IMG/VR virus record: IMGVR_UViG_3300032288_001980
Coordinates: 32,001 to 96,000 of that record
Strand: one strand, 5' to 3'
DNA length: 64,000 nucleotides
Source: a virus
Both the position numbers and the translations under genes were made by a program. Below, in pieces: positions 8,808 to 24,269 of the stretch (within the stretch, counting starts at the first letter, position 1; each line of letters opens with the position of its first letter). Under the pieces are notes generated by a model. The model had not been told where the DNA came from and did no database searches. It was given only the letters and a program-made list of their open reading frames with translations.

Positions 8808-9338
8808 ATGAGATTAAGAGAATTATTTGAACAAGCAGTTTCCGAAGCACTATTAGTTACCGATGTACCCAACGAAGATTGGTTAGATGGTAAAGTAGAG
8901 TATGCTAGAAAAAAAGGCTATGACAGTTACAACAGCCCATATATGGGCAGTACAACCGGTTATGTTAGACAGCCTAGCCGCGTAGAAATACCTATAGAGA
9001 TACTTAAAAGAATTCCTGGTGCTAGAAAAGAACAGGAAAATGTTCGCAGAGCAGATCTCGAAGCTATTATGAAAATAATGGACGAAACAGGCAAACTGCC
9101 AATGCATGACGGGAAAGAATATGCACCTTTTATTGGAGTTGCATGGAACGGTGATGCTAGAGTTTTAGAAGGTAATCATAGAATTATGGCCGCGGCTAAA
9201 TTGGGCTGGAAGTCTTTGCCAGTAGAATTAAAATACTTTGATGGCGGCGAACGAGTGGAGTCGGGCATGTTATACCCAGGTAAAATTGGATTAAAAGAAC
9301 CTGAACCCGGAACGACTATTGTTATGAATCAGGATTAA
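8808..9338 (+). CDS. MRxxE-tagged protein with a ParB/Srx-like domain
   Basis: N-terminus MRLRELFE; VLEGNHRIMAAAKLGWKSLPV resembles the ParB/Srx GxHR core. Confidence 0.65.
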   Translation: MRLRELFEQAVSEALLVTDVPNEDWLDGKVEYARKKGYDSYNSPYMGSTTGYVRQPSRVEIPIEILKRIPGARKEQENVRRADLEAIMKIMDETGKLPMHDGKEYAPFIGVAWNGDARVLEGNHRIMAAAKLGWKSLPVELKYFDGGERVESGMLYPGKIGLKEPEPGTTIVMNQD

Positions 9339-9339
9339 T

Positions 9340-9627
9340 ATGCAAGCTCAAGAATTTGATCATTTTGTTAGGTTAGTCAGCGACCAAGAATTAGACAAAG
9401 ATACTATTAAAGATTTTTTTAGAATAGTATTTGATAGTCCTGTTGGAGCATTAATTGATCAGCAATCTGATGGCGCAGTTATGATATATCATGCCAGAGA
9501 CCAAGAGCATTGCTATGATATTCCTTTAGTTGATGATCTTAGTAAATTGGATGGTGACATAATTTCCAAACGTCTATTGGATAAGTTTCCTTTTGATTTC
9601 AGCATCGAAGCCAGTACTAGTGTTTGA
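9340..9627 (+). CDS. Hypothetical acidic protein
   Basis: 95 aa; N-terminus MQAQEF is a possible variant of the MRxxE tag. Confidence 0.7.
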   Translation: MQAQEFDHFVRLVSDQELDKDTIKDFFRIVFDSPVGALIDQQSDGAVMIYHARDQEHCYDIPLVDDLSKLDGDIISKRLLDKFPFDFSIEASTSV

Positions 9628-9652
9628 CAACTAAATTAAATTTAGTTATACT
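9624..9652 (+). promoter_or_regulatory. Sigma70-type promoter with an internal palindrome
   Basis: TTGACA-17-TATACT; AACTAAAT-taa-ATTTAGTT inverted repeat spans the spacer; ATG 5 nt downstream. Confidence 0.7.
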
Positions 9653-9657
9653 AGTAC

Positions 9658-10020
9658 ATGATTAAAAACATCACTTCTAACTCCTCATTACTAAATGTAA
9701 GTTGCTATCAAGGCAATACTCCATATATCAGTCCAGGTGCCCAAAGTGCCGGTATGCTTAGATATAACACCAACATGAACTATTTAGAAGTCTATGATGG
9801 TGTCAGTTGGCAACAGTTTGGTGGTGGCAATGCTACTATTGATGTAGCACCTCACGTACAGGCTGCTATTGCGTGGGTACAATGTAAAATGGCCGAAGAA
9901 GCCGAAATGAAGGCTATGGCCGCAAAACATGCCAGCGTGGCCCATGCACTAGCTAACGTAGAGCAAGCAAAGAAAGAACTAGATTTAATTTTCCAACTAG
10001 CCAAGGACCACACAGAATGA
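9658..10020 (+). CDS. Hypothetical phage protein
   Basis: 120 aa; GMLRYNTNMNYLEVYDGVSW motif plus a C-terminal helix. Confidence 0.8.
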   Translation: MIKNITSNSSLLNVSCYQGNTPYISPGAQSAGMLRYNTNMNYLEVYDGVSWQQFGGGNATIDVAPHVQAAIAWVQCKMAEEAEMKAMAAKHASVAHALANVEQAKKELDLIFQLAKDHTE

Positions 10021-10295
10021 TTACAGTAGAATTTACCACAGACGACACACTAGAGCAACGCACAGAAACTATCGGCGATTTGCTACATCAGCACCATTGC
10101 GAAGTTACTTTTACCAAAGTAGACGGTTCGGTTAGGGTAATGCCCTGTACTCTCAAAGAAGGTAGCTTTCCCATCGTAGAAAGCAAAGGAACCAAAGCCA
10201 AAAATCCAAATGTCTACAGCGTTTGGTGTACTGACAAGTCAGAATGGCGTAGCTTCAAAATTATGAATGTTACCCAAATTACCGTTCTTGACTAA
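10017..10295 (+). CDS. WYL_2/DUF2693-like SH3-fold protein
   Basis: VTFTKVDGSVRVMPCTL...SVWCTDKSEWRSF pattern of T4-like phage DUF2693 proteins. Confidence 0.7.
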   Translation: MITVEFTTDDTLEQRTETIGDLLHQHHCEVTFTKVDGSVRVMPCTLKEGSFPIVESKGTKAKNPNVYSVWCTDKSEWRSFKIMNVTQITVLD

Positions 10296-10322
10296 TATTT
10301 TCATTTAATGTATAATAGTAGC

Positions 10323-10697
10323 ATGACTACATTTGTCGCCACGGATTCGTTTACACTAGAACAAGTGCAAGACTTTGCACGTATTAGTGGCGACGACCAA
10401 GAAATTCATGTAGTACACGGTATTGTGCAAGGCGGATTCATTATCAGCAAACTGCCTCAATGGCTAGTATGGAGTAAGTTTACCGAACAGGAATATTTCA
10501 AAGACTGTAAGTATGCGCTCAGTGCAAAAATGGATTTGAAGTTTAGTAAACCTGTTAGAGTTGATACTCCTTTGACAATAGAATTTACTTGCGATAATAT
10601 TAAGTCAGCAATCGTCACTATCGACTGGATTGTTAAAAGTGAAAATACTCGGCATTGCTGGGGATCATGGAAAGTTGTTACAAGAAATGGCACATAA
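10323..10697 (+). CDS. MaoC-like hotdog-fold (de)hydratase
   Basis: FTLEQVQDFARISGDDQEIH...IVQGGF resembles the MaoC F-A-x-x-S-G-D-x-x-x-H motif; start moved to 10323 because the track start overlaps a TTGACT-17-TATAAT promoter (10288-10316). Confidence 0.65.
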   Translation: MTTFVATDSFTLEQVQDFARISGDDQEIHVVHGIVQGGFIISKLPQWLVWSKFTEQEYFKDCKYALSAKMDLKFSKPVRVDTPLTIEFTCDNIKSAIVTIDWIVKSENTRHCWGSWKVVTRNGT

Positions 10698-11691
10698 ACG
10701 AATTGGCTTTGCTTGCAAGTGGATTGACTTTCCGCATCAGACTGACGGTATCAAACCCAAAGATGACTGCAAGAAATACAATACTGGCACTACTACTATC
10801 AGTTGGTTAAATAGACAAACTAGATCTGTAGCCGAACAAAAGCTCTGGGACCTGATGGTTCAAAACTTAGAAGCTACTAAGTTGCTGGTAGAAAGAGTTG
10901 GCAATCTTGAACCGAAATTTCGTATGGTCCGCCTTAGCAGTGATTTGTTGCCTGCTTATACCGAGCCTAGCTGGCGCTATTTTTGGCATCAGCCTGGGAC
11001 TGTTAGCTATCTTGAGCAACATTTTTCTATCATTGGCCAGCTGGCTAGGCAACTGGGTGTACGTCTTAGTTTTCATCCCGGCCAATATTGCGTACTGGCT
11101 AGTGAATCAGCTGACGTAGTTGATCGTAGTGTAGAGGAGTTTGAATATCATGTGGACATGGCCCGTTACATGGGATACGGTAAAGAATTTCAGGATTTTA
11201 AAATCAATGTCCACATCGCGGGTCGACGCGGTCCCCAAGGTATCATCGACATTATTCCACGACTCACTCCAGAAGCCCGTAACACACTTACCATCGAAAA
11301 CGACGAAATGTCGTGGGGCGTCGAAGACAGCATCAAGCTCGTTGACCATTGTGCCCTTGTACTCGATATACACCATCACTGGATCCGTACAGGAGAGTAC
11401 ATTCAGCCCTCCGACGATAGAGTATTACGTATAATTGATAGCTGGCGCGGCGTTCGGCCCGTTATCCATTACTCTGTTAGTCGCGAAGATATTTTAGTGG
11501 GGCATTGCGTTGATACTCTGCCCGACATGCACAGTTTGCTAGCACAGGGCTACAAAAAAGCCAAACTTAGAGCACACAGTGACTTTTATTGGAATACCGC
11601 AGTTAACCAATGGGCTATTACCTTTAACGATCAATTTGATATTATGTGCGAAAGCAAGGGTAAGAATTTGGCCAGTTTTCAATTAAATTAG
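10687..11691 (+). CDS. uvsE: UV damage endonuclease (UvsE/UVDE)
   Basis: IGFAC, RLSSDLLP, RLSFHPGQY, INVHI, LTIENDE, LVLDIHHH, VIHYS, RAHSD, DIMCESKGK motifs; probable start at ATG 10687. Confidence 0.9.
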   Translation: MAHKRIGFACKWIDFPHQTDGIKPKDDCKKYNTGTTTISWLNRQTRSVAEQKLWDLMVQNLEATKLLVERVGNLEPKFRMVRLSSDLLPAYTEPSWRYFWHQPGTVSYLEQHFSIIGQLARQLGVRLSFHPGQYCVLASESADVVDRSVEEFEYHVDMARYMGYGKEFQDFKINVHIAGRRGPQGIIDIIPRLTPEARNTLTIENDEMSWGVEDSIKLVDHCALVLDIHHHWIRTGEYIQPSDDRVLRIIDSWRGVRPVIHYSVSREDILVGHCVDTLPDMHSLLAQGYKKAKLRAHSDFYWNTAVNQWAITFNDQFDIMCESKGKNLASFQLN

Positions 11692-11721
11692 TATTCATTC
11701 ACTAGAAAAAAGATGTGGAAA

Positions 11722-11753
11722 ATGTTGCTCTGCAACATAAATAATGTTATACT
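11722..11753 (+). promoter_or_regulatory. Promoter overlapped by a palindromic operator (PhaR-like TGC-N3-GCA)
   Basis: ATGTTGC-TCT-GCAACAT palindrome over the -35 of TTGCTC-17-TATACT; TAAATA at 11738-11743. Confidence 0.6.
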
Positions 11754-11829
11754 ACAGAATGTACTGTAGTACAAGAGAAACGCCTAATGATAGGGTTTCA
11801 AATTTAACCTCGCTTTTAAGGAGAAAATT

Positions 11830-12048
11830 ATGCAAGAACTAATCAAAGAAACAACAACTGCTTTTGTTACTGATATCAACAAAGCCGCTTTAGAGTTTAC
11901 AAAAACCATTGTAGAAGCTCAAACCCAAGTTGTTAAGACCATGACAAAAGAGTTTTCCAAGCACTATGACCAAGAAAAAGTAAATGCTTTTTACAAGCCT
12001 TGGCAAGACCTAGCTTTACAAACTGCTCGTTCTGTATTCGTTAAGTAA
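11830..12048 (+). CDS. Phasin-like small amphipathic protein
   Basis: 72 aa all-helical, Thr/Ala/Lys-rich (INKAALEFTKTIVEAQTQVVKTM); strong SD TAAGGAG; structured leader. Confidence 0.5.
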   Translation: MQELIKETTTAFVTDINKAALEFTKTIVEAQTQVVKTMTKEFSKHYDQEKVNAFYKPWQDLALQTARSVFVK

Positions 12049-12065
12049 TTTAGAATACTATTCAC

Positions 12066-12109
12066 AAACCCCGCTAAATATAAGATTAAAACTTATATAG
12101 CGGGGTTTT
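12066..12109 (+). terminator. Long hairpin/terminator containing a late promoter
   Basis: AAACCCCGCT-aa-ATATAAG-attaaaa-CTTATAT-AGCGGGGTTT(T); TAAATA at 12075-12080; ends just before ATG 12112. Confidence 0.7.
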
Positions 12110-12111
12110 CC

Positions 12112-13098
12112 ATGAGATTTGAAGAATTTATTAGTCAGCCAGCAATAGGCGACATCATTGAAATTGAACTAGGCGAAGAAATAGTAGAAGCGGTTATCAC
12201 TGCCGTTAACGGTGACGAAATTGTTGCTGAAACTGATAGTATATCCGGTGCCAACTTACTAGTTGAGTCTTATGGAAAATACTGGTGCAGTACAGATAAA
12301 AAGTGGAAGGAACGTCAGGGTCCTAAGCAAACACGCAGTAGTGAAAGCATTGAAGAAGTCAAGCAAAGACTAGATCCTAAATGCTGGGACGGTTATAAAA
12401 AACAGGGCACCAAAATCAAAGGTGGTGTTAGAGTTAATAACTGTGTTAAAGAATCAGCAGATGTTAACAGTCTAGCTAAAATCAGCGATGAAGCACTAGA
12501 CAAAGCCTACGGGTACGGTCGCAGTAGTCCTGGTAACACATTTGGCTGGCAAGCCAATGTTATGAGTGCCACTTATGCTAAAAAACTAATTGATGCTGGA
12601 GAAACAGATATTGAAAAAATCTCTGATGCTATCCACAAAGGTTGGAATGTTACTGCACAAAAGTTTGTACAAGATCCCAATCAGTTTGATGATACAGAAA
12701 AACTACGCCAAGCAGGTAAACTAGATGCTAAGTTAGAGCAAAGAGCCAAGTTAATGAAAATTAACTATGCTCAGTTGTCCGAAGACGAAAAAGAAAAAGA
12801 CCGCGTTGTTGCTCGTGCTTTGTTACAAGCTATTAACGGTGAGCAAGGTGTGGCGGAAGCTGAATATCAAGGACGCAATGTTCCCTTAGGCAAGCCAATG
12901 CAAGGCGATGTTAAGAAGTTTAAGGTTTATGTACGTGATCCAAGCACAGGTAATGTGAAAAAAGTAAACTTTGGCGATCCTAACATGCGTATTAAAAAGT
13001 CCAACCCTAAACGCCGTAAGAGTTTCCGTGCAAGACACAATTGCAGTAACCCAGGACCACGTACAAAGGCACGTTACTGGTCATGCAGAAAGTGGTAA
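12112..13098 (+). CDS. MRxxE-tagged modular polyprotein (small Cys/basic modules plus a RyR-like domain)
   Basis: MRFEEFI start; modules CWDGYKKQG...NNCVKE; DAIHKGW...YAQLSEDEKEKDR (RyR-repeat-like); GVAE linker; AEYQGRNVPLGKP...RARHNC...YWSC. Confidence 0.75.
   Translation: MRFEEFISQPAIGDIIEIELGEEIVEAVITAVNGDEIVAETDSISGANLLVESYGKYWCSTDKKWKERQGPKQTRSSESIEEVKQRLDPKCWDGYKKQGTKIKGGVRVNNCVKESADVNSLAKISDEALDKAYGYGRSSPGNTFGWQANVMSATYAKKLIDAGETDIEKISDAIHKGWNVTAQKFVQDPNQFDDTEKLRQAGKLDAKLEQRAKLMKINYAQLSEDEKEKDRVVARALLQAINGEQGVAEAEYQGRNVPLGKPMQGDVKKFKVYVRDPSTGNVKKVNFGDPNMRIKKSNPKRRKSFRARHNCSNPGPRTKARYWSCRKW
12844..12859 (+). repeat. GVAE linker repeat, copy 1 (CAAGGTGTGGCGGAAG)
   Basis: 14-mer AAGGTGTGGCGGAA identical to the copies at 14694 and 15003. 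Confidence 0.9.
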
Positions 13099-13101
13099 GC
13101 T

Positions 13102-13500
13102 GTGCGTAAACATATCAACATTGTAGAAGCTGTTAGTAAAGGTTGTCCCATTGCCACACATGATTTGGAAGTTAATGTAAAGAATCGACAAGTGGGTATA
13201 GACCAACATCACTATGGGCCAGCTAATCCAGACAAGCCCGGCGACTACTGGAAAGTAGCTGCCAAGCAATGGAAGATAGATGAAAAGACTGCCAAGACTA
13301 TGCAATGTGCAAACTGTGCGGCATTTAATATAACAGATGCTATGTACAAATGCATACATGATGGTATGGGCAAAGAAGCGTTTGAATCCGAAAAGACACG
13401 CGAAGCCGCAGACTTAGGTTACTGTAACTTATTGCATTTTAAATGTGCAGGTTCACGCAGTTGTGAGTTATGGATAACCGGCGGACCTATAGTAAAATAA
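13102..13500 (+). CDS. Cys-rich hypothetical phage protein
   Basis: GTG start; CANCAAF and GYCNLLHFKCAGSRSC motifs; MRKHINIVE N-terminus. Confidence 0.8.
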   Translation: MRKHINIVEAVSKGCPIATHDLEVNVKNRQVGIDQHHYGPANPDKPGDYWKVAAKQWKIDEKTAKTMQCANCAAFNITDAMYKCIHDGMGKEAFESEKTREAADLGYCNLLHFKCAGSRSCELWITGGPIVK

Positions 13501-13501
13501 T

Positions 13502-15187
13502 ATGCGATTTACTGAATTCATTAAAGGTCCTGCACCTAAACAAACCAAAACACAATTCACAGAAATGGAATTGGCAATAATGGAGGGCGGCGGCAGTTTA
13601 GAACCCGCAGTCGAGTTGCCAGTTGTCAAACGTCAAAGTGCATTATCGCAGGCCATGGGCGAAGCAGAAATGGGTACTGCTTATGCTCGTAACATATCAC
13701 AAGAGTTTCGAAAACTAGGTTACAAAAAGATTGGCAGCGGTGCAGACAGTACTGTGTTTGCCAAAGAAGCAGGTTATGTAATTAAAATTCTTATGCCCGA
13801 AGATCCAGGTAGTCGTGCTGTAGAAGTGTTTAAAAAATTCTACGAATTTTGCCTGCAACATCAAGATCTTAAATGTTTGCCAGTAATCAACGAATATAAT
13901 ACTATCGATGTACTAGATAAAGAATACATTCAGATTGACATGGAACGACTTTTTCCTATTAGGAAAAATACGTTTTCCGAAGCAATGGTTTGGTATCTAA
14001 GTGATTATGTAAGCAATGACATTGCATGGCCTGCGGTTAAAGCGGAATTATCTAACCCTGATAAATGGGAAGAATCGCATTGGCCTAGGCAAGCTGATAA
14101 AATAGCTAACAAAGTAAAAAATCTCACAGCTGATCAAGAACAAACATGGAGTGAATTATATTCTGTAATGTCCATGTTATTTAAAACTGGACGTATCAAT
14201 AAACTAGGTTGGGACTTGCATACTGAAAATGTCATGCAACGTAAAAACGGCGATCTAGTTATTATCGATCCGTGGTTTGCCGACAATACTTTGTTAGAAT
14301 CTAATTTAGAAGAAAAGTGGAGTCAAAAGTACAAGAAGTCTATTAACTGTAGTAATCCCAAAGGATTTAGCCAACGTGCTCATTGCCAGGGTCGAAAGAA
14401 AAATGAAGGCGTTGAAGCCAATTTGAATACCAAGTATAGTCTAAAAAACATGTTCGGTGATGTAAAATCATTGGACAATTTAAGTCTTGAACAGTTGAAC
14501 AAGGCCATGGACGGCCGTGTTCGACTTGTGGGAAGAAAATTTCGCAGTCAAGAAGGACGCAGTTTTAGATACGATGTTAAACTGGCCAATGGTGAATGGT
14601 ATATCATGCATGTAGTTTATGTGCATGGCTTAATTGATGCTTGGCTCACCGATGAAGAAAACAATAAGATACCGTTGAGCAAATTTAAGGCAAAAGGTGT
14701 GGCGGAAGGTATTGATATTGGTCAGGAGTGGATGAGCGATACTGAACTCGACGACTATGTACCAATACAACTTCAAGACGAGTGGCGTGAGCTGTTGGGA
14801 TTTGATGAAGAAGGAAATCCACATCCATTATGGGTTAACATGACTGGGGACTACGAGCCTAACTCAAACGATCCACAACATCGTGCATGGATGGTCAAAG
14901 TAGCTAACAAATGGTTTGCTATGAAAAAGATTCCTAATGTCAAATTCTATGATGTTAGGGACATAGATGACGAATTAGAATGGTTGGTTCAGATTGGTCA
15001 GCAAGGTGTGGCGGAAAACTTTGCTGACGGCAAAGTCAAAGGCAAAAGCCGGCCCGGTCGTGTAAAACGTGCAGGTGCTAGTTGTGATGGTTCAGTCACT
15101 GACTTACGTGCTAAAGCAAAAAATGCCAGCGGCGAGAAAAGTAAAATGTATCACTGGTGTGCTAATATGAAGTCGGGTAAAAAGTAA
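13502..15187 (+). CDS. MRxxE-tagged polyprotein with a protein-kinase-like domain and four further modules
   Basis: MRFTEFI start; IGSGADSTV glycine loop, VIKIL, WDLHTENVM catalytic loop, IIDP; then KWSQKYKKSINCSNPKGFSQRAHCQGRKK, two GVAE-delimited modules and a basic Cys module. Confidence 0.75.
   Translation: MRFTEFIKGPAPKQTKTQFTEMELAIMEGGGSLEPAVELPVVKRQSALSQAMGEAEMGTAYARNISQEFRKLGYKKIGSGADSTVFAKEAGYVIKILMPEDPGSRAVEVFKKFYEFCLQHQDLKCLPVINEYNTIDVLDKEYIQIDMERLFPIRKNTFSEAMVWYLSDYVSNDIAWPAVKAELSNPDKWEESHWPRQADKIANKVKNLTADQEQTWSELYSVMSMLFKTGRINKLGWDLHTENVMQRKNGDLVIIDPWFADNTLLESNLEEKWSQKYKKSINCSNPKGFSQRAHCQGRKKNEGVEANLNTKYSLKNMFGDVKSLDNLSLEQLNKAMDGRVRLVGRKFRSQEGRSFRYDVKLANGEWYIMHVVYVHGLIDAWLTDEENNKIPLSKFKAKGVAEGIDIGQEWMSDTELDDYVPIQLQDEWRELLGFDEEGNPHPLWVNMTGDYEPNSNDPQHRAWMVKVANKWFAMKKIPNVKFYDVRDIDDELEWLVQIGQQGVAENFADGKVKGKSRPGRVKRAGASCDGSVTDLRAKAKNASGEKSKMYHWCANMKSGKK
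14694..14708 (+). repeat. GVAE linker repeat, copy 2
   Basis: AAGGTGTGGCGGAAG, in frame. Confidence 0.9.
15002..15016 (+). repeat. GVAE linker repeat, copy 3
   Basis: CAAGGTGTGGCGGAA, in frame, 309 nt after copy 2. Confidence 0.9.
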
Positions 15188-15195
15188 AACTAATA

Positions 15196-15828
15196 ATGGT
15201 TACGTTAGAAAAAACTCATGAACAATTAAATCCGCAGGCTACATGGTCAAGACCTATAGACAAGATAATAGTGTCACATGACTGCATGACTAACTTTGAT
15301 CAAAACGGCTACGACCTTACTCCCTTAGAGGAGCGTTATGCAGAAGCCAATGGAGCCAGTGTGCGTAATGTTAGATGGCGTAAAGCAATATTCAAAGATT
15401 GGTTTAGTTGCAGTTCTATAAAAGGTGTACATTTAAATCATGCTTGTTTATTTGAGCGTAAAGGCTTTAGCGGTACGGCTCTAAAACAAATACATCAGTT
15501 TGCTGAGCAGTTTACACCTGTATATAAACTAGTTCATATGAGACCTAAGTGGGGCATAGATATCAGTATAGACTATGCAGATGCTGACAAGGCATTTGAA
15601 GTATTTCACTACGAGTGGGATGATTTTAATTACGATTCAGTGGTTGAAAAACAATATCAAATAGAAAAAGTTATTACTAATGTTGATTGGCAGGACTTAG
15701 CTGATAAGTTTTGGCAAATGCGAGACCAGTGGTTGCATTTAGATTTTTACGGACAAACTAAGTTTAAAACAGATTATCTAAACCTAGAGCCCGAGCGTTT
15801 TAAATTAGTTACATGGACATTAAGTTAA
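15196..15828 (+). CDS. Hypothetical phage protein
   Basis: 210 aa; FDQNGYDLTPLE and PKWGIDISIDY motifs, no function recognised. Confidence 0.8.
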   Translation: MVTLEKTHEQLNPQATWSRPIDKIIVSHDCMTNFDQNGYDLTPLEERYAEANGASVRNVRWRKAIFKDWFSCSSIKGVHLNHACLFERKGFSGTALKQIHQFAEQFTPVYKLVHMRPKWGIDISIDYADADKAFEVFHYEWDDFNYDSVVEKQYQIEKVITNVDWQDLADKFWQMRDQWLHLDFYGQTKFKTDYLNLEPERFKLVTWTLS

Positions 15829-15835
15829 ATACTGT

Positions 15836-16462
15836 ATGCGTTTAAAAGAAATTTCACAGCAATATCTTTGGCACGGATCCAGGAACAAAATTCCTGTTCT
15901 AGAGCCAAGACAATCACTAGACACTGGTGGCGCACCAGGTAGTAACCAAAACGCTATCTATGCTACCAGCGACCCAAAAGTTGCAATTGCCATGGGACTT
16001 ACAACAGCTGGTTCTGACACTGGTATGTTTCCTAATGACCCTCAAATGGTTTTATTCAGTGGAAAAATTAGAAAAGGCGAAAATGTTTATTTGCACAAAG
16101 TACCTATGAACGGTCCTGATGGCAAGCCACAGTTTGTGCCCGGCGGTAACAGTAGAGAATTTCATTCCGTTCCTGGAGTTAAAGAAATTAAACCAGTAGA
16201 AATAAAAGAAGTTCCTGTGGACCAGTATCTTCATTTAATCAGAGAAGCTACTCCTGAAGACTGGGAACTACGCAAAAAGTACATGAAGCAAAGTGTAGAC
16301 GAAGCACGTTATCACGGCCGTGAAGTAACACTGGGTATTCCAGTTAAACAGGGCGAACATTATTTTGTTTATCAACGAGATCCTATTACTCAAAAAATAA
16401 AAAAGGTAATACACAAAGAGCCGGCAAAGAAAGTTAAAAAAGTCAAAACTATACGTAAGTGA
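15836..16462 (+). CDS. MRxxE-tagged protein with an ADP-ribosyltransferase-like domain
   Basis: YLWHGS...LEP...AIYATSD (H-G-S / Y-x-T ART pattern); C-terminal ARYHGREVTLG...RDP..KIKKV module; TAAATA 4 nt upstream. Confidence 0.6.
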   Translation: MRLKEISQQYLWHGSRNKIPVLEPRQSLDTGGAPGSNQNAIYATSDPKVAIAMGLTTAGSDTGMFPNDPQMVLFSGKIRKGENVYLHKVPMNGPDGKPQFVPGGNSREFHSVPGVKEIKPVEIKEVPVDQYLHLIREATPEDWELRKKYMKQSVDEARYHGREVTLGIPVKQGEHYFVYQRDPITQKIKKVIHKEPAKKVKKVKTIRK

Positions 16463-16487
16463 TTATAGTGATATATAATGTGTCACT

Positions 16488-18512
16488 ATGAAAAAACTTT
16501 TTGAGATTCGAAACTTAAATCCCGTTAAACGAATTGAGCAGGACTACGATGAAAAGCATAGACTGGCCATGGAAGCCATTAAGCCCTATGCTAGATCCGT
16601 ACCACAAAGTAATTTAACTCCTGTTAGTATAGACTATATTAGTAGAAAAACTAGTATAGTATTTTTACTATTGCCAGAGTGGGCACATAATTTTCCTCCT
16701 TATAACGTGGCCCGCTTGGCCGCAGTGACTAAAGCAGCCGGCTACGAAACACATGCATTTGATCTTAACGCCAAAGCATATCAAAATCATACCAATTGGA
16801 AGTTAGACTATAATCCATGGGCCGGCAATAGAGATTGGAAGTGGCGCAGTCCGCACTATGAACAAGAACTCAGTCCACATGTCGAAAAATTTCTAAGTCC
16901 TTACATAGAAAAAATAGTAAAACTTAATCCTACGGTTGTAGGACTTACACTATATTACTGCAACGAAGAAGCCAGCAAATGGATGGCTCGAGAATTAAAA
17001 AAGCGTATGCCCAATTTAATAGTAATGGTTGGCGGGCCTAGTTGTCATCAAAGCTACTGGGAGCCTCCCAAAGAATATGACTATATTGTATCTGGCGAAG
17101 GCGAAAAAATGTTATTAGAAGCCATGGAAGAAATAGAACAAGGTATTGTCAAACCCAAGCCTGTATGGTTTAGACAGCAAGATGGACAGCGTTTAGACTT
17201 AGACAGTATTCCTAGTCCAGACTACAGTCATTTTCCTGCCAGCGACTATTCTGTACCTAATGGTATTAATGCAGAACTTAGCAGAGGTTGTATAGCCAAA
17301 TGTGTATTTTGCAGTGAAACACATTACTGGAAATATCGCGGCAGAATGGCACGTAACATTATTGACGAACTAGCAGACTTGTATTATAATCGCGGAGTAG
17401 ATGTAGTATGGTTCATTGACAGTTTAGTTAATGGCAATCTTAAAGAATTACGTGCATTTGCTCTAGGAGTAGTAGCACGTGGTATGAAATTACATTGGAC
17501 CGGGTATGCTAGATGTGATGGGCGCATGGACTTGGACTATTATAAGGACCTTGCTGCCAGCGGCTGCTTTAGTTTAAGTTATGGTATTGAATCTGGGTCA
17601 AACAAAGTTCTCGCTGACATGGACAAAGGCGTAACTGTTGAAGAAATAGAACAGAATTTTAGAGACGGTGCCGAAGTTGGAGTCGAAGCATTTACTAACT
17701 GGATAGTTGGATTTCCTACTGAACAGCCGCAGGACTTGTATGACAGTATGCAGTTGATATGGCGTAATAGAAATAATAATATCAGCAGTATTGCCGCTGG
17801 TATGGGTTTTATTATTCCACCCGACACTATTATTGCACAGGCTGTGGAAAAATTTAACATAGCAAAAAACTACTTTGAAAATAACTGGATAACCAATGAC
17901 TATCGCAACAGTAAAGTTCACAGACTTATAAGGTTAAAGATTTTTAACATATTGTTGATTAATTTAATTAACAAACAAGGACATGATTATACCAATAGAC
18001 CAAACCTTAAACACAGCTATAAATTAAAGGCCAGTTCGTTAAAAGAAATTGAATTTGAGCAATTTGACTTTAATATATGCAAGCCTAACATCAGCAGTTT
18101 TGCAGACAGTGTTGTTAATGAAGTATGGCCTTTACTAAGACTGCTTTGGAGAACAAGGGGTGCATTTAGTATAGACTTGCAGTTTAATCCCGAACAAGAC
18201 AGTCAAGAGTTTGGATGGAATTTAAGCAGTGATTTTACTGCACAAATTAAATTTGAAATCAACGAGCAAGGGCGATGGACTGCGGATTTTTACTATAAGT
18301 TCAAGCAAGCAGAAAATGCTTGGAATTTCAATGACTATTCAACAGCGACCAGCGTGGCTGCTAGCAGAGCTCGCAAATTAGCAGTACCAGGAAGCACAGG
18401 ACAAGTAGTCTACGACGATGAAGAAAGAGACCGACATTTGGCTTTATTAGAACAGCGCAAACAACTGGATTTCAGTTTCGAATACACATACAAAGATATT
18501 GGACAATGGTAA
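16488..18512 (+). CDS. B12-binding-domain radical SAM protein
   Basis: N-terminal cobalamin-binding region (PPYNVARLAA...VGLTLY...VGGPS), SRGCIAKCVFC CxxxCxxC, FIDSLVN, GIESGS, NWIVGFPTE. Confidence 0.88.
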   Translation: MKKLFEIRNLNPVKRIEQDYDEKHRLAMEAIKPYARSVPQSNLTPVSIDYISRKTSIVFLLLPEWAHNFPPYNVARLAAVTKAAGYETHAFDLNAKAYQNHTNWKLDYNPWAGNRDWKWRSPHYEQELSPHVEKFLSPYIEKIVKLNPTVVGLTLYYCNEEASKWMARELKKRMPNLIVMVGGPSCHQSYWEPPKEYDYIVSGEGEKMLLEAMEEIEQGIVKPKPVWFRQQDGQRLDLDSIPSPDYSHFPASDYSVPNGINAELSRGCIAKCVFCSETHYWKYRGRMARNIIDELADLYYNRGVDVVWFIDSLVNGNLKELRAFALGVVARGMKLHWTGYARCDGRMDLDYYKDLAASGCFSLSYGIESGSNKVLADMDKGVTVEEIEQNFRDGAEVGVEAFTNWIVGFPTEQPQDLYDSMQLIWRNRNNNISSIAAGMGFIIPPDTIIAQAVEKFNIAKNYFENNWITNDYRNSKVHRLIRLKIFNILLINLINKQGHDYTNRPNLKHSYKLKASSLKEIEFEQFDFNICKPNISSFADSVVNEVWPLLRLLWRTRGAFSIDLQFNPEQDSQEFGWNLSSDFTAQIKFEINEQGRWTADFYYKFKQAENAWNFNDYSTATSVAASRARKLAVPGSTGQVVYDDEERDRHLALLEQRKQLDFSFEYTYKDIGQW

Positions 18513-18525
18513 GTTAAATATAGAT

Positions 18526-18828
18526 ATGAAACAATATAAAATTACCAGTGAAACTTTTAGAACTCAGGGCGATGATCCTAGTATTCCTGACGCTTATGTG
18601 GATCCCGCACAGCTAGCAGAACTTAAAAAACTAGCGGGTATAGACAGTTTGGGAATTATGGAACGACATCGTGCCCGTGACTCTCAAAGCCCTATCACTG
18701 GTGAAATTGGCACGGATAAAGCAGAATATCAGCGTAAGCATAATATTAGACCCGGATCAGACGAGTGGTTTAAGTTGTGGTTTGCAAGGCCCACGCTAAC
18801 TGGAGAAAACCCCATGCCCAAGGCTTGA
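18526..18828 (+). CDS. Hypothetical phage protein
   Basis: TAAATA 5 nt before ATG 18526; KHNIRPGSDEWFKLWF motif. Confidence 0.75.
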   Translation: MKQYKITSETFRTQGDDPSIPDAYVDPAQLAELKKLAGIDSLGIMERHRARDSQSPITGEIGTDKAEYQRKHNIRPGSDEWFKLWFARPTLTGENPMPKA

Positions 18829-18861
18829 CCCCAACAGGTAAATACTATATAATGGGGTTTT
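18806..18861 (+). promoter_or_regulatory. Sigma70 and late promoters enclosed in a 10-bp inverted repeat
   Basis: AAAACCCCAT...ATGGGGTTTT stem; the loop holds TTGACC-17-TATAAT (whose last 2 nt run into the right arm) and TAAATA. Confidence 0.65.
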
Positions 18862-18864
18862 ATT

Positions 18865-19491
18865 ATGAGTGAGTATTACAAAAGATTACAACTAAACAAT
18901 TTAGAACAGTTTCAAACAACAATCAGTGACTTATATGTTACTGATCCTATTGTTTCTAATGTTACCGGGCCTATCCCTTTATTTAAATCCGGTCAACCAG
19001 AACCCGAGTACAAGTATAGCTTGTTAGCATGGGCGCCTATTCAAATTTTAACTGGATCTAATAGTATTAGTCCTGCATATTTTAGAGTGTTTGGATTACC
19101 ACAACAAACTTATCCAATAGTAGAACAGGGACATGACATTAAAGTTCACCATCGACAAGCACGAGACTCAAAAGAAGTATTAACGGCCCATTTATTACAA
19201 CTAATAATGTATATTCCCATTTTAAATGGGGCCGATCACACTATAGAATTATATGATCCCGACTCTGAGGAGTTACTAGATAGTTTTGCACTAACTACGC
19301 CTGTATTGGTTGACAGCAACCTTAAAATGAAATCTGTAATTAATAATCCCAATGGTTGTTGGCATGTACAAATACAATTTGTAACTAAACATGCGTATGC
19401 AATGACAGGAAATATGCTACTTCAAACTATTGGTACTCCAATGGCTCCGGGAGCCTTATCTTTCCCTGCATCCCAAATTTTACCTGACTAA
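18865..19491 (+). CDS. Hypothetical protein, possibly double-stranded beta-helix/2OG-oxygenase-like
   Basis: 208 aa, beta-rich C-terminal half; only weak similarity recognised. Confidence 0.5.
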   Translation: MSEYYKRLQLNNLEQFQTTISDLYVTDPIVSNVTGPIPLFKSGQPEPEYKYSLLAWAPIQILTGSNSISPAYFRVFGLPQQTYPIVEQGHDIKVHHRQARDSKEVLTAHLLQLIMYIPILNGADHTIELYDPDSEELLDSFALTTPVLVDSNLKMKSVINNPNGCWHVQIQFVTKHAYAMTGNMLLQTIGTPMAPGALSFPASQILPD

Positions 19492-19494
19492 ACC

Positions 19495-20595
19495 ATGGAA
19501 AGAAAGCACCCGCTAGGACCAGCGACTACACAAAGTCAATTGCCCGAAGGCTACCAAATGAACTGGGCTGTAGCTAACGGCTGTCCCACTACATTCAGCT
19601 GGGAATACAACGACCATCGTAAAGAATTGTTGTCCTTGTACGAAAAGGGCAAGGCCGGCCAATGGGACGCACAAACAAGAATCGACTGGACTATAGAAAC
19701 AGACCCAACTAACCCAATGGGCATTGACGAAACTATTATTCCTTTATACGGTACAGATCTGTGGTCAAAACTTAGTGCTAAAACCAAAGACGATATCGTC
19801 TACGATTATAATGCTTACCTAATAGGTGCGTTCTTACATGGAGAACAGGGTGCGTTAATCAGCGCGGCTAAGATTATTGAAAGTGCTCCTGATCACGATG
19901 CCAAATGGCTAGCTACTACACAGGCCATTGACGAAAGTCGCCACATCGAAGCCTTTGGTAAGTTTGCACATAGAATTAACATGATACGCCCAGTGCAACG
20001 CAGTTTGATGAAAATGTACGAAGTTGCTTTTAAAAGCGACAAGTGGGACTTGGTATTTCTAAACAGTCACGTAGTAGCCGAGGGGTGGGGAATAGGAAGT
20101 ATGCAGTTGATGCGTGATAACGCTACTAATCCATTAGCTAAAAGTATGCTGGCCTACATTATGCAGGACGAAGCAAGACATATTGCGTTTGGACGTTATA
20201 TTCTTAAAGATTATTATAAAGGTCTAACTGCACAAGAACTAATGGACCGCGAGGACTATTTAATTGCTTGTGTAATGTGGCTATATGCCCGCTTGGATTT
20301 TAACGAAATCTTAGATCATCACTTGGATATGAAAGACGTAGGGCGCCAAATCAAAGAAAACGTCAGCTACCACAAAGTTAAAAAACACATGATGAGCAGA
20401 ATCGTTCCTATTATCAAGGATATTGGACTGCTGACCCCTAGACTGCAAAAGACGTTTGTAAAACTGGGTATCATTGAAAACGTTGACTTAAACTTTGATG
20501 ATATGTGGCGCGAAGATGATGCTATTGCTACCAGCATGGAAGAAACCATACGCAATAGACTACAGCAAGTAGGTGTCAATACTAATAATCTCTAA
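19495..20595 (+). CDS. Ferritin-like diiron oxygenase (AurF-like)
   Basis: HGEQGAL, DESRHIE, VVAEGWG, DEARHIAFG: two E...ExxH diiron motifs. Confidence 0.8.
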   Translation: MERKHPLGPATTQSQLPEGYQMNWAVANGCPTTFSWEYNDHRKELLSLYEKGKAGQWDAQTRIDWTIETDPTNPMGIDETIIPLYGTDLWSKLSAKTKDDIVYDYNAYLIGAFLHGEQGALISAAKIIESAPDHDAKWLATTQAIDESRHIEAFGKFAHRINMIRPVQRSLMKMYEVAFKSDKWDLVFLNSHVVAEGWGIGSMQLMRDNATNPLAKSMLAYIMQDEARHIAFGRYILKDYYKGLTAQELMDREDYLIACVMWLYARLDFNEILDHHLDMKDVGRQIKENVSYHKVKKHMMSRIVPIIKDIGLLTPRLQKTFVKLGIIENVDLNFDDMWREDDAIATSMEETIRNRLQQVGVNTNNL

Positions 20596-20646
20596 GCAAA
20601 AATAAATGGTATAAATTCAATAAATACATGAATTGAGCCATTTATT

Positions 20647-21873
20647 ATGCGATTACAAGAACTTCTAGCTGAAAATATCACATTACTCGAGTACAATCGA
20701 GATATCACCGCCCAAAACTATGGCAGGAAAATCGTCCCTATTGCTAGGAGAGATCGTAGTATACCCGCACAATTCAGAGATCCAGATCAAGTATCCGACG
20801 ACCAATTATTAGATTTAGTCATGGACCAAATCGAAAAGTCGGATCCCACACAAAATAAAGAATACGCACAGGCCCTAGCAAAAATATACGGACAAGGACA
20901 AACAAAGTTCGAAGACATGGGCAGTACATTATCAGATTATCTTATTAAATTTGATAAACTTAAACGCAAAAAAGTTATTCCTAGTCCTCGTAATGATTTT
21001 ATGCGCTATACTAATATTGGCGATTTTTTAAGTGTAGTTGACGAATATCCCGATGTAGACGAAAGCCCCGAAGCCAAAGGCAAATCCCACGAAATTTATA
21101 AAGATTCTGTTCTAAGAGTAATTCAACCTATTAACAAAGAAGCCGCTTGCTATTACGGACGTGGTACACGTTGGTGTACTGCGGCTAATACTAATAACAT
21201 GTTTGACACTTATGCCGGCAAGGGCGAATTGTTTATTCTTATACCTCAAAAGCCTGCATATAAAGATGAGAAATATCAACTGCATTTCGAAACTAGGCAG
21301 TTTATGAATGAAAAAGATCATCCTGTACCAATGATAGATCTTGTAAAAAGATTCCCGCAATTAAAACAAATATTCTACGATCAAGCACATAATCTTAATA
21401 TCAAAGCCTTGATACTTGACACAGAAGAATATGAAAAATTACTTAGAAAATTCCCAGAAGAAATAAGAAATCGTTTATTAGCATTTGTAAATGAAGACAC
21501 TGGTACTGTTATTAAAAATATGCTGGTACAATTACTTCACGACGCAAAAATTCTAAAAGAGTTAGTTGATCCAGACGAATTCAAAGAACTAGCATGGGAA
21601 GCCTTTAATGACGAAGGTTATGATTTAGTTAATAAAATTACTAGAACCATTCGTGATATTGATACATGGCAAGAGTTTGAAGCAAGATATGATATAGTCA
21701 GTGATGCAATAGCAGACTGGACGCAGGAAAAAGATTTTTATCAGTTAATCATGGACGAATTAGAAAGCATCGATGAGCTAGACCTACAGATGGACTGTGC
21801 AATAGGCATGAACGGTGAAATACTAAACTGGCTAGATGCGGCCATTGAACATAACGTAAGGGAACTAATATGA
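20647..21873 (+). CDS. MRxxE-tagged protein with a PcfJ-like segment
   Basis: MRLQELLAE start; AACYYGRGTRWCTAA...LFILI...KYQLHFE motif. Confidence 0.6.
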   Translation: MRLQELLAENITLLEYNRDITAQNYGRKIVPIARRDRSIPAQFRDPDQVSDDQLLDLVMDQIEKSDPTQNKEYAQALAKIYGQGQTKFEDMGSTLSDYLIKFDKLKRKKVIPSPRNDFMRYTNIGDFLSVVDEYPDVDESPEAKGKSHEIYKDSVLRVIQPINKEAACYYGRGTRWCTAANTNNMFDTYAGKGELFILIPQKPAYKDEKYQLHFETRQFMNEKDHPVPMIDLVKRFPQLKQIFYDQAHNLNIKALILDTEEYEKLLRKFPEEIRNRLLAFVNEDTGTVIKNMLVQLLHDAKILKELVDPDEFKELAWEAFNDEGYDLVNKITRTIRDIDTWQEFEARYDIVSDAIADWTQEKDFYQLIMDELESIDELDLQMDCAIGMNGEILNWLDAAIEHNVRELI

Positions 21874-23354: not shown

Positions 23355-23355
23355 T

Positions 23356-24195: not shown

Positions 24196-24210
24196 ACGAA
24201 ATAATGAATA

Positions 24211-24245
24211 TCCTGTGTATCCTCCACAGGAAGGCGAGTGGGATA
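24211..24245 (+). other. Intergenic hairpin with a possible pseudoknot
   Basis: TCCTGTG-TATCCTC-CACAGGA stem-loop; the loop TATCC can pair with GGATA at 24241-24245. Confidence 0.4.
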
Positions 24246-24269
24246 GACCCTTAAACCCATATAGTCCAG

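What the first reader, a model, noticed from the sequence alone, without database searches (positions are those of the whole stretch)
12844..15016. An identical 14-bp repeat AAGGTGTGGCGGAA (G-V-A-E) delimits in-frame modules inside polyproteins: a possible cassette-shuffling system
Seen: three identical copies at 12845, 14694 and 15003, each at an apparent module junction, in two genes. Copies 2 and 3 are 309 nt (103 codons) apart and bracket one self-contained acidic module. All copies use the same GC-rich codons (GGT GTG GCG GAA) in an AT-rich genome, which protein-level selection alone would not require. Inference: the site may serve both as a Glu-specific protease cleavage site and as a DNA microhomology or recombination site. 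That would let effector modules be gained or lost in frame, like an integron or shufflon for capsid cargo.
Basis: partly seen in the sequence, partly recalled or inferred. Interest (0 to 1): 0.82.

Follow-up and report, generated by a model that had tools for sequence, protein, structure and literature searches.

The report
Phage cargo polyprotein swap-and-cut linker
Two head-targeted cargo genes of an uncultured giant T4-related phage join their protein modules with one short linker (Gly-Val-Ala-Glu) whose DNA is frozen even at silent positions in hundreds of phages, lies where related phages swap modules in frame, and fits the cutting rule of the phage head protease, though cutting has not been measured.

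Summary
AAGGTGTGGCGGAA occurs three times in the window, and nowhere else in the 184-kb record. Each copy is in frame as (Q/K)GVAE at a module junction in two neighbouring genes. It uses Val and Ala codons that are rare in this genome.

It is not a local oddity. In 160 IMG/VR loci chosen by protein similarity alone, 61% of all GVAE are encoded by exactly GGTGTGGCGGAA. Invariant peptides in the same genes vary freely at silent sites.

Among 142 distinct sites, every pair with a homologous flank is homologous on one side only. Identity of 66-100% starts or stops at the linker. The acidic module between copies 2 and 3 recurs elsewhere with several unrelated left and right neighbours.

The genes carry T4-like capsid-targeting N-termini, and the record encodes a gp21-type head protease. 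V-A-E is therefore a plausible cleavage site, inferred rather than shown.

No tyrosine or serine recombinase was found in five motif-bearing jumbo records, and four of them have a RecA/UvsX-like gene. I therefore read the linker as a frame-locked short-homology crossover point, not an integron or shufflon.

This scan has already reported the same linker in at least 8 other genomes; my tests were run independently. I found no paper that describes it.

The parts
12112..13098 (+). Cargo polyprotein gene 1 (328 aa). Order of parts: targeting tag, small basic Cys module (KCWDGYKKQG...NNC), weak RyR-like helical module, GVAE linker, C-terminal basic module.
   Evidence: ORF and translation. PHROG hits to separate modules. 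RyR match only E=0.026, below the Pfam cut-off.
12112..12141 (+). Capsid-targeting-like N-terminal tag MRFEEFISQP.
   Evidence: It resembles the 10-residue T4 IPIII targeting sequence MKTYQEFIAE (the sequence string occurs in 10.1101/2021.01.19.427310; its properties are in PMC9026906). About 10 ORFs in the window share MR[LFA]xE[LF], as do most motif-bearing ORFs elsewhere.
12845..12858 (+). Linker copy 1: AA GGT GTG GCG GAA (Q)GVAE. It is the junction between the RyR-like module and the C-terminal module.
   Evidence: tblastn matches from other phages to the downstream module start at residues 242-249.
12859..13098 (+). C-terminal module AEYQGRNVPLGK...RHNC...YWSC (phrog_7595). It is promiscuous and widespread in aquatic viruses.
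   Evidence: It is a stand-alone tagged protein in Kyanoviridae phage C48C1. In P0007 it follows the acidic module after a GVAE.
13502..15187 (+). Cargo polyprotein gene 2 (561 aa). Order of parts: tag MRFTEFIKGP, protein-kinase-like domain, CSNPKGF basic module, a module of unknown kind, linker, acidic module, linker, NFADG basic module.
   Evidence: Kinase: phrog_15752, E=1e-12, residues 62-261. Kinase-PolyVal is only a weak match.
13685..14284 (+). Protein-kinase-like domain (residues 62-261 of gene 2).
   Evidence: phrog_15752 and phrog_18305. In the closest relatives, L001 and L002, this domain is followed directly by the NFADG module, without the three middle modules.
14694..14707 (+). 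Linker copy 2 (K)GVAE, the left boundary of the acidic module.
   Evidence: L011 is homologous to the window (77% nt) only to the right of this 12-mer.
14708..15004 (+). Self-contained acidic module of 99 aa, function unknown.
   Evidence: Compact AlphaFold2 model, pLDDT 89.6. No PDB or BFVD fold match. Homologues occur alone behind a tag or between varied neighbours.
15003..15016 (+). Linker copy 3 (Q)GVAE, the right boundary of the acidic module and the left boundary of the NFADG module.
   Evidence: L047 is homologous to the window (82% nt) only to the right of this 12-mer. tblastn matches start at residues 498-505.
15017..15187 (+). C-terminal module NFADGKVKGKSRPGR...HWCANM. It is highly conserved (up to 96% aa) across hundreds of viral contigs.
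   Evidence: It is almost always preceded by a Glu, mostly with a hydrophobic residue two places upstream. In several phages it is preceded directly by a tag (MRAxEF[IV]xE|NFADGK).
16292..16303 (+). Decayed linker AGT GTA GAC GAA (SVDE) in a third tagged gene, 15836-16462. A diverged, truncated copy of the gene-1 C-terminal module follows it.
   Evidence: BLASTP 44% identity over 59 aa, E=1e-10, aligning QGVAE|A with QSVDE|A. Sequence.

Best explanation
The repeat is the canonical inter-module linker of a widespread class of capsid-targeted cargo polyproteins. These occur in uncultured T4-related jumbo phages; this one has a PA5oct/GAP32-like capsid protein.

Protein level (inferred). Each polyprotein starts with a T4-like capsid-targeting tag, so it is loaded into the prohead core. 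The gp21-type head protease then cuts after Glu of V-A-E and releases the modules as separate small proteins that travel with the DNA.

DNA level (pattern shown, mechanism inferred). The roughly 18-nt string CAA GGT GTG GCG GAA GGC always lies in the same codon phase. It is the only sequence shared by otherwise unrelated modules. A crossover within it, between co-infecting phages or between paralogous genes, joins any upstream module set to any downstream one in frame.

The crossover is most likely made by the phage's general recombination system (UvsX-type), not by a dedicated site-specific enzyme.

The silent positions probably stay fixed because modules that keep the canonical string are the ones that keep being exchanged and spread. 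Linkers that drift drop out of the exchange pool, as the decayed SVDE copy at 16292 appears to have done.
For: Shown here:

1. The coding is frozen. In loci ascertained by protein patterns that do not include GVAE, 38 of 62 GVAE are exactly GGTGTGGCGGAA. Ala is GCG in 71% of them, against 6% in the invariant NFADGK of the same loci, and Val is GTG in 77%. Outside the motif GCG is 7% and GTG 10-20%. This holds in all GC bins from 36% to 47%.

2. The exact 12-mer occurs 42 times in 1.39 Mb of related loci, against 0.17 expected, always on the gene strand.

3. Phase lock: 118 of 119 sites are in phase 0 of long ORFs. Conservation is confined to about -5..+14, and the flanks are unrelated.

4. Breakpoints. 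Among 142 distinct sites, 35 pairs share at least 60% nt identity on one flank only and none share it on both. Homology stops at the 12-mer: L165/L231 are 97% identical on the left and 27% on the right; L040/L172 are 100% identical on the right and 32% on the left. Of internal HSP ends, 18% fall within 6 nt of the 12-mer, against 2.6% at random; the figure is 31% for HSPs of at least 90% identity, and most of the rest lie at variant GxAE linkers.

5. One module, many neighbours. Counting all distinct sequences seen, the acidic module is followed by seven different modules or by a stop, and preceded by five different modules or directly by a tag. Each polyprotein junction except one (left side, L353) lies at G/S/A-V/M-A-E. 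P0007 joins it to the very module that ends gene 1 of this window.

6. The closest kinase relatives lack the three middle modules. The right edge of that difference is copy 3.

7. Protease context. Peptidase_S77 and a Gp23 capsid protein are in the record. Tags are widespread. The NFADG module is almost always preceded by Glu, mostly with a hydrophobic residue two places upstream, including tag-only forms. T4 gp21 cuts after L/I-x-E and removes the targeting tag (PMC9026906).

8. Machinery. No tyrosine or serine recombinase in 5 motif-bearing jumbo records; RecA/UvsX-like in 4 of 5. No recurrent nuclease or recombinase stands next to the genes.
Against: Cleavage after GVAE has not been observed anywhere. 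P3 is Val, not the Leu or Ile of the T4 rule. These could be uncut multidomain proteins.

12-18 nt is short for RecA-family recombination. No experiment shows that this string raises crossover frequency.

Module junctions without the canonical DNA also exist, for example most junctions before NFADG, so shuffling does not strictly need it.

Selection among illegitimate recombinants for intact domains would by itself place junctions in linkers.

Maintaining silent sites 'for exchangeability' is second-order selection and is hard to prove.

The record is only about 52% complete, and no UvsX-like gene was found in it.

Cultured relatives (PA5oct, GAP32, Vibrio phage 2.275.O, Phosso, C48C1) lack the 12-mer, so no experimental system is at hand.
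Confidence: 0.6

Rival explanations
1. The exact nucleotide string is kept for another reason. It could be an RNA or DNA signal: a translational pause from rare codons at domain boundaries to aid co-translational folding, a recombination hotspot of the Chi kind, or the target of a sequence-specific nuclease whose breaks are repaired from a co-infecting genome. On this reading, crossovers at the string are a by-product of its conservation.
For: GTG and GCG are rare codons here. Conservation extends to the wobble base of the next codon: GGC 77 against GGT 21, where the background favours GGT. In two otherwise identical contigs, the only 2 differences in 1,103 nt are silent changes inside one linker. 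That could reflect local breakage and repair, or escape from a nuclease.
Against: Other rare codons (GTC, GGG) are not used; one exact string is. No start codon, slippery site, dyad or consistent pairing partner accompanies it. There are only 1-4 copies per near-complete genome, all inside cargo genes, unlike Chi. No nuclease gene recurs next to the genes; the neighbouring endonuclease in the window is a UvdE repair enzyme. Pooled near-identical pairs show no general excess of changes in linkers.
Confidence: 0.18
2. It is a dedicated site-specific cassette system, like an integron or shufflon. A recombinase recognises the repeat, excises modules and inserts them.
For: Identical direct repeats bracket a complete module (14694/15003). 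Cassette-like re-assortment is seen across phages.
Against: No tyrosine or serine recombinase in this record or in five motif-bearing jumbo records, three of them 97-100% complete. The site is asymmetric, with no inverted arms. Copies are few per genome. No promoter-plus-array layout is seen. No conserved neighbouring enzyme.
Confidence: 0.05
3. The linkers are only flexible spacers of permanently multidomain ('polyvalent') virion proteins and are never cut. The DNA-level role, if any, is separate.
For: Polyvalent phage proteins with many effector domains are known and some are packaged unprocessed (PMC5512222). Cleavage is untested here. The kinase gives a weak Kinase-PolyVal hit.
Against: The same modules exist as stand-alone tagged proteins, in which the tag ends with the same x-x-E just before the module. 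A gp21-type protease is present. The Glu is almost invariant at every junction, while non-synonymous changes elsewhere in the motif occur.
Confidence: 0.2
4. Chance, codon bias, or chimeric metagenome assembly at a shared repeat.
For: All relatives are metagenome assemblies. A shared repeat can mislead assemblers.
Against: Shuffle and codon statistics exclude chance. The shared string is 12-21 nt, at or below the smallest k-mers usual in assembly (my knowledge). Identical junction architectures were assembled independently from different samples: L040/L061, L049/L054, L351/L352. Protein-database entries from other sources show the same junctions.
Confidence: 0.02

Closest known systems
Phage T4 internal proteins IPI, IPII, IPIII and Alt (capsid targeting sequence plus gp21 processing)
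   Same: A short N-terminal tag of similar pattern (MKTYQEFIAE against MRFEEFI...). Loading into the prohead core. Removal by a Peptidase_S77 protease that cuts after Glu at a hydrophobic-x-E site. Highly variable cargo behind a conserved tag (PMC9026906, PMC3012670).
   Different: T4 cargo proteins are single modules, each with its own tag. Here several unrelated modules hang behind one tag and are separated by an internal linker whose DNA is fixed. P3 is Val. Nothing here has been tested biochemically.
VENN-encoding junction of CdiA toxins and their orphan cdiA-CT/cdiI modules (similarly the Rhs core/toxin boundary)
   Same: A four-residue motif marks where conserved and variable parts meet. 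Homology between loci begins and ends at the motif-encoding DNA. Recombination between the conserved motif-encoding sequences is the proposed way of swapping modules (PMC3150448).
   Different: That system is bacterial, has one junction per protein, and its modules travel with an immunity gene. Here there are several junctions per gene, no immunity partner, a phage capsid context, and a presumed second role as a protease site.
Conserved-motif recombination in T-even tail-fibre adhesins (gp38 glycine-rich motifs, gp37 motifs)
   Same: [quoted passage not shown] 1996, 1998).
   Different: The glycine-rich motifs are structural core elements of one folded domain, and the swapped pieces are loops. 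Here whole autonomous domains are swapped, and the motif is a linker with frozen silent sites.
PeSL mobile regulatory cassettes of T4-type phages
   Same: Short conserved sequences in hyperplastic regions that serve as crossover points for modular shuffling (PMC2839356, PMC4122927).
   Different: PeSLs are intergenic promoter/terminator elements of about 50 nt or more that shuffle whole genes. The GVAE string is coding, phase-locked, 12-18 nt long, and shuffles protein domains.
Integron attC cassettes and shufflons
   Same: The outcome is similar: modules re-assorted at a repeated site.
   Different: Those need a dedicated tyrosine recombinase and structured or inverted sites. None of that was found here.
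Polyvalent proteins of phages and conjugative elements (Iyer et al. 2017)
   Same: Many unrelated effector-like domains in one virion-delivered polypeptide. A weak Kinase-PolyVal hit. Processing into units has been proposed (PMC5512222).
   Different: That paper proposes processing by an embedded metallopeptidase domain. My term search of it (cleavage, processing, capsid) turned up no conserved linker, and I did not read the whole text. Here there is no such peptidase domain, and the prohead protease is the presumed cutter.

Membership tests
T4-type capsid-targeted, gp21-processed internal head proteins | N-terminal capsid targeting sequence of the T4 pattern | tested here: met
   MRFEEFI / MRFTEFI against T4 MKTYQEFIAE. 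About 10 ORFs in the window and most motif-bearing ORFs elsewhere (32 of 61 by a strict pattern, about 45 by eye) share it. This is similarity of pattern only; targeting is not tested.
T4-type capsid-targeted, gp21-processed internal head proteins | A Peptidase_S77 (gp21-type) prohead protease and a Gp23-type capsid protein in the same genome | tested here: met
   PF03420, 88.5 bits, at G000 165696-166142. PF07068, 278 bits, at 167769-168527. 3 of 5 other motif-bearing jumbo records also match PF03420.
T4-type capsid-targeted, gp21-processed internal head proteins | Cleavage C-terminal to Glu in L/I-x-E | not testable with these tools
   V-A-E has the right P1 and a hydrophobic P3, but not Leu or Ile. 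The comparative pattern (Glu, usually with a hydrophobic residue at P3, before modules; tag-only forms) is consistent. No proteomic data exist.
T4-type capsid-targeted, gp21-processed internal head proteins | Presence in the virion and ejection with the DNA | not testable with these tools
   The phage is uncultured. Cultured relatives lack the linker.
Integron | IntI tyrosine recombinase | tested here: not met
   PF00589: 0 matches in this record (about 52% complete) and 0 of 5 motif-bearing jumbo records, three of them 97-100% complete.
Integron | attC sites: imperfect inverted repeats that fold as hairpins | tested here: not met
   The consensus CAAGGTGTGGCGGAAGGC has no dyad symmetry. Conservation ends within about 5 nt of the 12-mer.
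Shufflon | Inverted repeats and a Rci-type recombinase that inverts segments | tested here: not met
   All copies are direct and on the gene strand. No tyrosine or serine recombinase was found.
Motif-delimited polymorphic effector systems (CdiA-VENN / Rhs type) - resemblance in working, not membership | Homology between loci begins or ends at a short conserved motif-encoding sequence | tested here: met
   35 one-sided pairs and none two-sided. Identity up to 97-100% stops at the 12-mer. HSP ends are enriched about 7-fold there.
Motif-delimited polymorphic effector systems (CdiA-VENN / Rhs type) - resemblance in working, not membership | CdiA/Rhs protein homology, two-partner secretion or T6SS delivery, a cognate immunity gene | tested here: not met
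   No such domains in Pfam or PHROG scans of the two genes. The context is a phage head.
Polyvalent proteins (Iyer et al. 2017) | Multiple effector domains in one polypeptide with diagnostic domains (e.g. Kinase-PolyVal, MPTase) over threshold | tested here: inconclusive
   Kinase-PolyVal scores only 14-16 bits against a cut-off of 27. No MPTase domain was found. The multi-module architecture is met.

The most novel reading that the evidence does not exclude
The frozen 18-nt linker is an evolved, frame-locked 'universal adaptor'. It lets a large guild of uncultured aquatic jumbo phages trade capsid-delivered effector domains as in-frame cassettes, and it doubles as the cut site that separates them after loading. 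This would be a pan-phage domain-exchange standard kept by selection on exchangeability, possibly helped by a still unknown factor that targets the string.
Probability: 0.4. Interest if true: 0.85.

Novelty: new variant of a known kind. Interest (0 to 1): 0.72.

Why it matters
It would be a clear natural case of a short coding sequence conserved at silent sites across many viruses and lying where protein domains are exchanged. The proposal that conserved linker sequences mediate module exchange between phages is an old one (modular theory of phage evolution; my knowledge), and here it could be tested at the level of single domains.

It also points to a large, unexplored repertoire of proteins that giant phages probably inject with their DNA: kinase-like, ADP-ribosyltransferase-like, small basic Cys peptides, and acidic domains of no known fold. 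The linker gives a simple sequence handle, a fixed 12-18-mer in phase 0, for finding and delimiting these modules in metagenomes.

If cleavage and capsid targeting are confirmed, tag plus linker would be a ready-made design rule for loading several proteins into T4-type capsids.

Tried and rejected
1. Chance or codon bias: rejected by shuffles and codon statistics.

2. A locally duplicated segment: rejected, because the flanks of the three copies are unrelated apart from 20 of 21 nt shared by copies 1 and 3.

3. Literature. 'GVAE' plus phage gave nothing relevant. Searches on jumbo-phage polyproteins and on PA5oct proteolysis found no description. Repoila et al. 1994 (PMC395341) is not held.

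4. Cultured phages. No DNA relative of the locus exists beyond a 90-nt module match in Synechococcus phages. The NFADG module has no tblastn hit in INPHARED. PA5oct, GAP32, Vibrio 2.275.O, Phosso and C48C1 have no exact 12-mer; 1-mismatch hits are at control level.

5. Bacterial genomes. The 18-mer gave 56 hits, mostly single ones in high-GC actinomycetes. I read these as chance or unrelated (not examined individually). Only a few small MAG contigs carry several copies, for example L340, and these are probably mis-binned phage.

6. Function of the acidic module: no Pfam family, and no PDB or BFVD fold match at E<=0.001.

7. A dedicated enzyme next to the genes. Clustering of neighbours in 80 loci gave family-B DNA polymerase, a ferritin-like protein, a ClpB-like ATPase and a RecA-like protein, but no recombinase or homing nuclease.

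8. A general mutation hotspot at linkers: not supported by pooled near-identical pairs.

10. Complex prediction was not used, because an enzyme with its substrate peptide is a poor use of that test.


Full report
OBSERVATION

The 14-mer AAGGTGTGGCGGAA is present at 12845, 14694 and 15003 on the + strand. With up to two mismatches allowed there are still only these three hits, against 0.31 expected, and none of 100 dinucleotide-preserving shuffles reached three. The complete record that holds the window is a 183,898-bp IMG/VR virus record that CheckV rates about 52% complete. It contains no further copy on either strand.

All three copies are read as xAA GGT GTG GCG GAA in the frame of two adjacent genes. 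These are ORF 12112-13098 (328 aa; QGVAE at residues 246-249) and ORF 13502-15187 (561 aa; KGVAE at 399-402 and QGVAE at 502-505).

In this 39% GC genome GTG makes up 10% of Val codons and GCG 7% of Ala codons. A single GVAE would be written this way with probability 0.0026.

WHAT THE GENES ARE

The record encodes a gp21-type prohead protease (Pfam Peptidase_S77, 88.5 bits) and a Gp23-type major capsid protein. The capsid protein is 65-69% identical to those of Pseudomonas phage PA5oct, Cronobacter phage GAP32, Vibrio phage 2.275.O and Sinorhizobium phage Phosso. This is therefore about half of a T4-related jumbo phage genome.

Both genes begin MRF(E/T)EFI. About ten ORFs between 8.8 and 25.7 kb of the window begin MR[LFA]xE[LF]. 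This resembles the ten-residue capsid targeting sequence of T4 internal protein III (MKTYQEFIAE). That tag directs proteins into the prohead core and is removed by gp21, which cuts after Glu in L/I-x-E (PMC9026906; the sequence string occurs in 10.1101/2021.01.19.427310, found).

Gene 2 carries a protein-kinase-like domain (phrog_15752, E=1e-12). Gene 1 carries small basic Cys modules and a weak RyR-like region. The 99 residues between copies 2 and 3 fold with high confidence as one compact domain (pLDDT 89.6, pTM 0.83). That domain has no PDB or BFVD match.

THE LINKER IS A NUCLEOTIDE-LEVEL MOTIF SHARED BY MANY PHAGES

I fetched 160 IMG/VR loci using peptide patterns from the two proteins. 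None of those patterns includes GVAE. In their 1.39 Mb the exact 12-mer GGTGTGGCGGAA occurs 42 times, always on the gene strand, against 0.17 expected.

Of 62 distinct in-frame GVAE in these loci, 38 (61%) use exactly this coding. Ala is GCG in 71% and Val is GTG in 77%. As an internal control, the invariant peptide NFADGK in the same loci has 35 different codings, and its Ala is GCG in only 6%. The preference holds in loci from below 38% to above 46% GC.

In the 80 loci returned, 118 of 119 distinct sites lie in phase 0 of long ORFs of up to 1,482 aa. Conservation is limited to about -5..+14, with consensus aaG CAA GGT GTG GCG GAA GGC, and the flanks are unrelated.

One-step variants exist, both synonymous and non-synonymous. 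Per possible change the synonymous ones are about four times more frequent, and they are mostly transitions away from the canonical string.

Five large records of 262-355 kb, three of them 97-100% complete, carry 1-4 copies each. The copies sit on one strand and are clustered. The reversed-pattern control gives zero.

Cultured relatives and a Kyanoviridae phage that has one of the modules do not carry the string. In bacterial genomes the 18-mer occurs at roughly chance level, apart from a few small, probably viral, MAG contigs.

MODULES ARE EXCHANGED AT THE LINKER

tblastn matches of the two window proteins in other phages start or end in tight clusters at the linkers: residues 242-249 of gene 1 and 498-505 of gene 2.

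The closest relatives of the kinase (65-71% identity) go straight from the kinase domain to the NFADG module. They lack the three modules that the window has in between, and the right edge of this difference is copy 3.

Among 142 distinct linker sites, 35 pairs have at least 60% nucleotide identity over 90 nt on one side only, and none have it on both sides. In the alignments the identity switches on or off at the 12-mer. L165/L231 are 97% identical on the left and 27% on the right. L040/L172 are 100% identical on the right and 32% on the left. The window's copies 2 and 3 behave the same way against L011 and L047.

In an all-against-all comparison of 109 motif-bearing ORFs, 18% of internal homology ends lie within 6 nt of the exact 12-mer, against 2.6% for random positions. 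For HSPs of at least 90% identity the share is 31%, and most of the remaining ends sit at variant GxAE linkers.

The acidic module of the window is the clearest example.

- It occurs alone behind a tag: MKIQDILTEQGVAE|module in P0009 and MRIRDILTEQ|module in P0005.
- It occurs behind five unrelated upstream modules.
- It is followed by seven different downstream modules or by a stop.
- Each polyprotein junction except the left one in L353 lies at G/S/A-V/M-A-E.
- In P0007 it is followed, after EQGVAE, by the AEYQGRNVPLGK module that ends gene 1 of this window. That is the product expected from a crossover between copy 3 and copy 1.

Within the window, a third tagged gene (15836-16462) ends with a diverged copy of that same module behind a decayed linker: QSVDE, CAA AGT GTA GAC GAA.

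Assembly chimerism is an unlikely cause. The shared string is at or below the smallest usual k-mers (my knowledge). The same junction architectures were assembled independently from different samples.

PROTEASE SITE: CONSISTENT BUT INFERRED

The NFADG module is almost always preceded by Glu in 84 distinct contexts, mostly with a hydrophobic residue (V, I, L, M or F) two places upstream. In several phages it is preceded directly by a tag, MRAxEF[IV]xE|NFADGK. This is the layout of a T4 internal protein. The gene-1 module is a stand-alone tagged protein in phage C48C1 (MKKFKQYIDE...).

Together with the Peptidase_S77 gene, this makes cutting after V-A-E the most economical reading. P3 is Val rather than Leu or Ile, however, and no proteomic evidence exists.

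MECHANISM OF EXCHANGE

The site is asymmetric and all copies are direct repeats. No tyrosine or serine recombinase was detected in this record or in five motif-bearing jumbo records. Four of those five, including all three near-complete ones, encode a RecA/UvsX-like protein.

Recurrent neighbours of the polyprotein genes are a family-B DNA polymerase, a ferritin-like protein, a ClpB-like ATPase and a RecA-like protein. They are not nucleases or recombinases. The endonuclease just upstream in the window is a UvdE repair enzyme.

I therefore favour short-homology crossover by the general recombination system during co-infection, or between paralogous genes. The phase-locked string guarantees in-frame products. 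Why silent sites stay fixed remains an inference. The simplest idea is that modules with the canonical string are the ones that continue to be exchanged and spread.

A separate RNA or DNA function of the string is not excluded. One odd observation keeps that open. Two contigs from different samples are identical over 1,103 nt except for two silent changes inside one linker. A pooled test shows no general excess of changes in linkers.

COMPARISON WITH WHAT IS KNOWN

Targeting and processing match T4 internal proteins in pattern. The exchange logic matches three precedents:

- the VENN-encoding junction of CdiA toxins, where homology between loci begins and ends at the motif DNA and recombination between these sequences is proposed (PMC3150448);
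- the conserved-motif exchanges in T-even tail-fibre adhesins (PMC3157838);
- the intergenic PeSL cassettes of T4-type phages (PMC2839356, PMC4122927).

It is not an integron or shufflon by any defining feature tested. The combination found here is a multi-module capsid cargo polyprotein, a linker frozen at silent sites across hundreds of uncultured phages, and a probable double role as cut site and crossover site. I found no description of this combination in the papers searched.

Notes from this scan report the same linker in at least eight other genomes, with the same reading. I treated them as leads. The statistics and alignments above were produced independently here. A note on this genome pointed me to the degenerate module copy at 15836-16462, which I verified.

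VERDICT

- Observation: confirmed.
- Interpretation: partly supported. The DNA-level junction and in-frame module exchange are shown. Cleavage is plausible but untested. The integron or shufflon mechanism is not supported.
- Class: a new variant of a known kind (motif-delimited polymorphic effectors).
- Overall confidence in the best explanation: 0.6.
- Interest: 0.72.

Noticed in passing
window 8808-25736: About ten otherwise unrelated ORFs start with MR[LFA]xE[LF]. Their starts are 8808, 12112, 13502, 15836, 20647, 21870, 23356, 24283 and 24627; 9340 starts MQAQEF. This looks like a large block of capsid-targeted cargo genes.
   Followed up: partly
window 15836-16462: A tagged protein whose last 57 residues are a diverged, truncated copy of the C-terminal module of gene 1, behind a decayed linker QSVDE (16292-16303). 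BLASTP gives 44% identity, E=1e-10.
   Followed up: partly
L351:573-1103 against L352:2782-3312: Two contigs from different metagenomes are identical over 1,103 nt except for two silent changes, both inside one GVAE linker: GTA GCG against GTG GCT. This may be a local conversion or repair hotspot, but it is a single case.
   Followed up: partly
window 12859-13098: The module AEYQGRNVPLGK...RHNC...YWSC occurs in very different viruses: Pelagibacter podophages and siphophages, Roseobacter phages, Methylophilales and Flavobacterium myophages, and Nitrosopumilaceae spindle-shaped archaeal viruses. One record annotates it as 'HVA1 family protein'.
   Followed up: no
window 21870-23354: The C-terminal two thirds of this tagged protein (...KRDKFDYPYVHGS...CPGAGACKTYCYAM...) recur in L001 and L003. 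There they sit behind one to three GVAE-linked modules instead of the window's N-terminal part.
   Followed up: no
window 10630-11691: A UV-damage endonuclease UvdE homologue (PF03851, E=6.7e-36) lies just upstream of the cargo genes. It is a repair enzyme, not a homing nuclease.
   Followed up: yes
window 16488-18512: This 674-aa ORF contains CIAKCVFC, a CxxxCxxC pattern typical of radical-SAM enzymes (read from the sequence). Its only hit is a PHROG of unknown function.
   Followed up: no
window 14708-15004: The acidic 99-aa module gives a confident compact alpha/beta model (pLDDT 89.6) with no significant PDB or BFVD match. It may be a new fold family of injected proteins.
   Followed up: partly
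L164-L243 (80 loci found by the 15-mer): Motif-bearing polyprotein genes often lie near a family-B DNA polymerase gene (25 of 80 loci) and a ferritin/Dps-like gene (20 of 80 loci). This suggests a conserved hyperplastic region beside the replication genes.
   Followed up: partly
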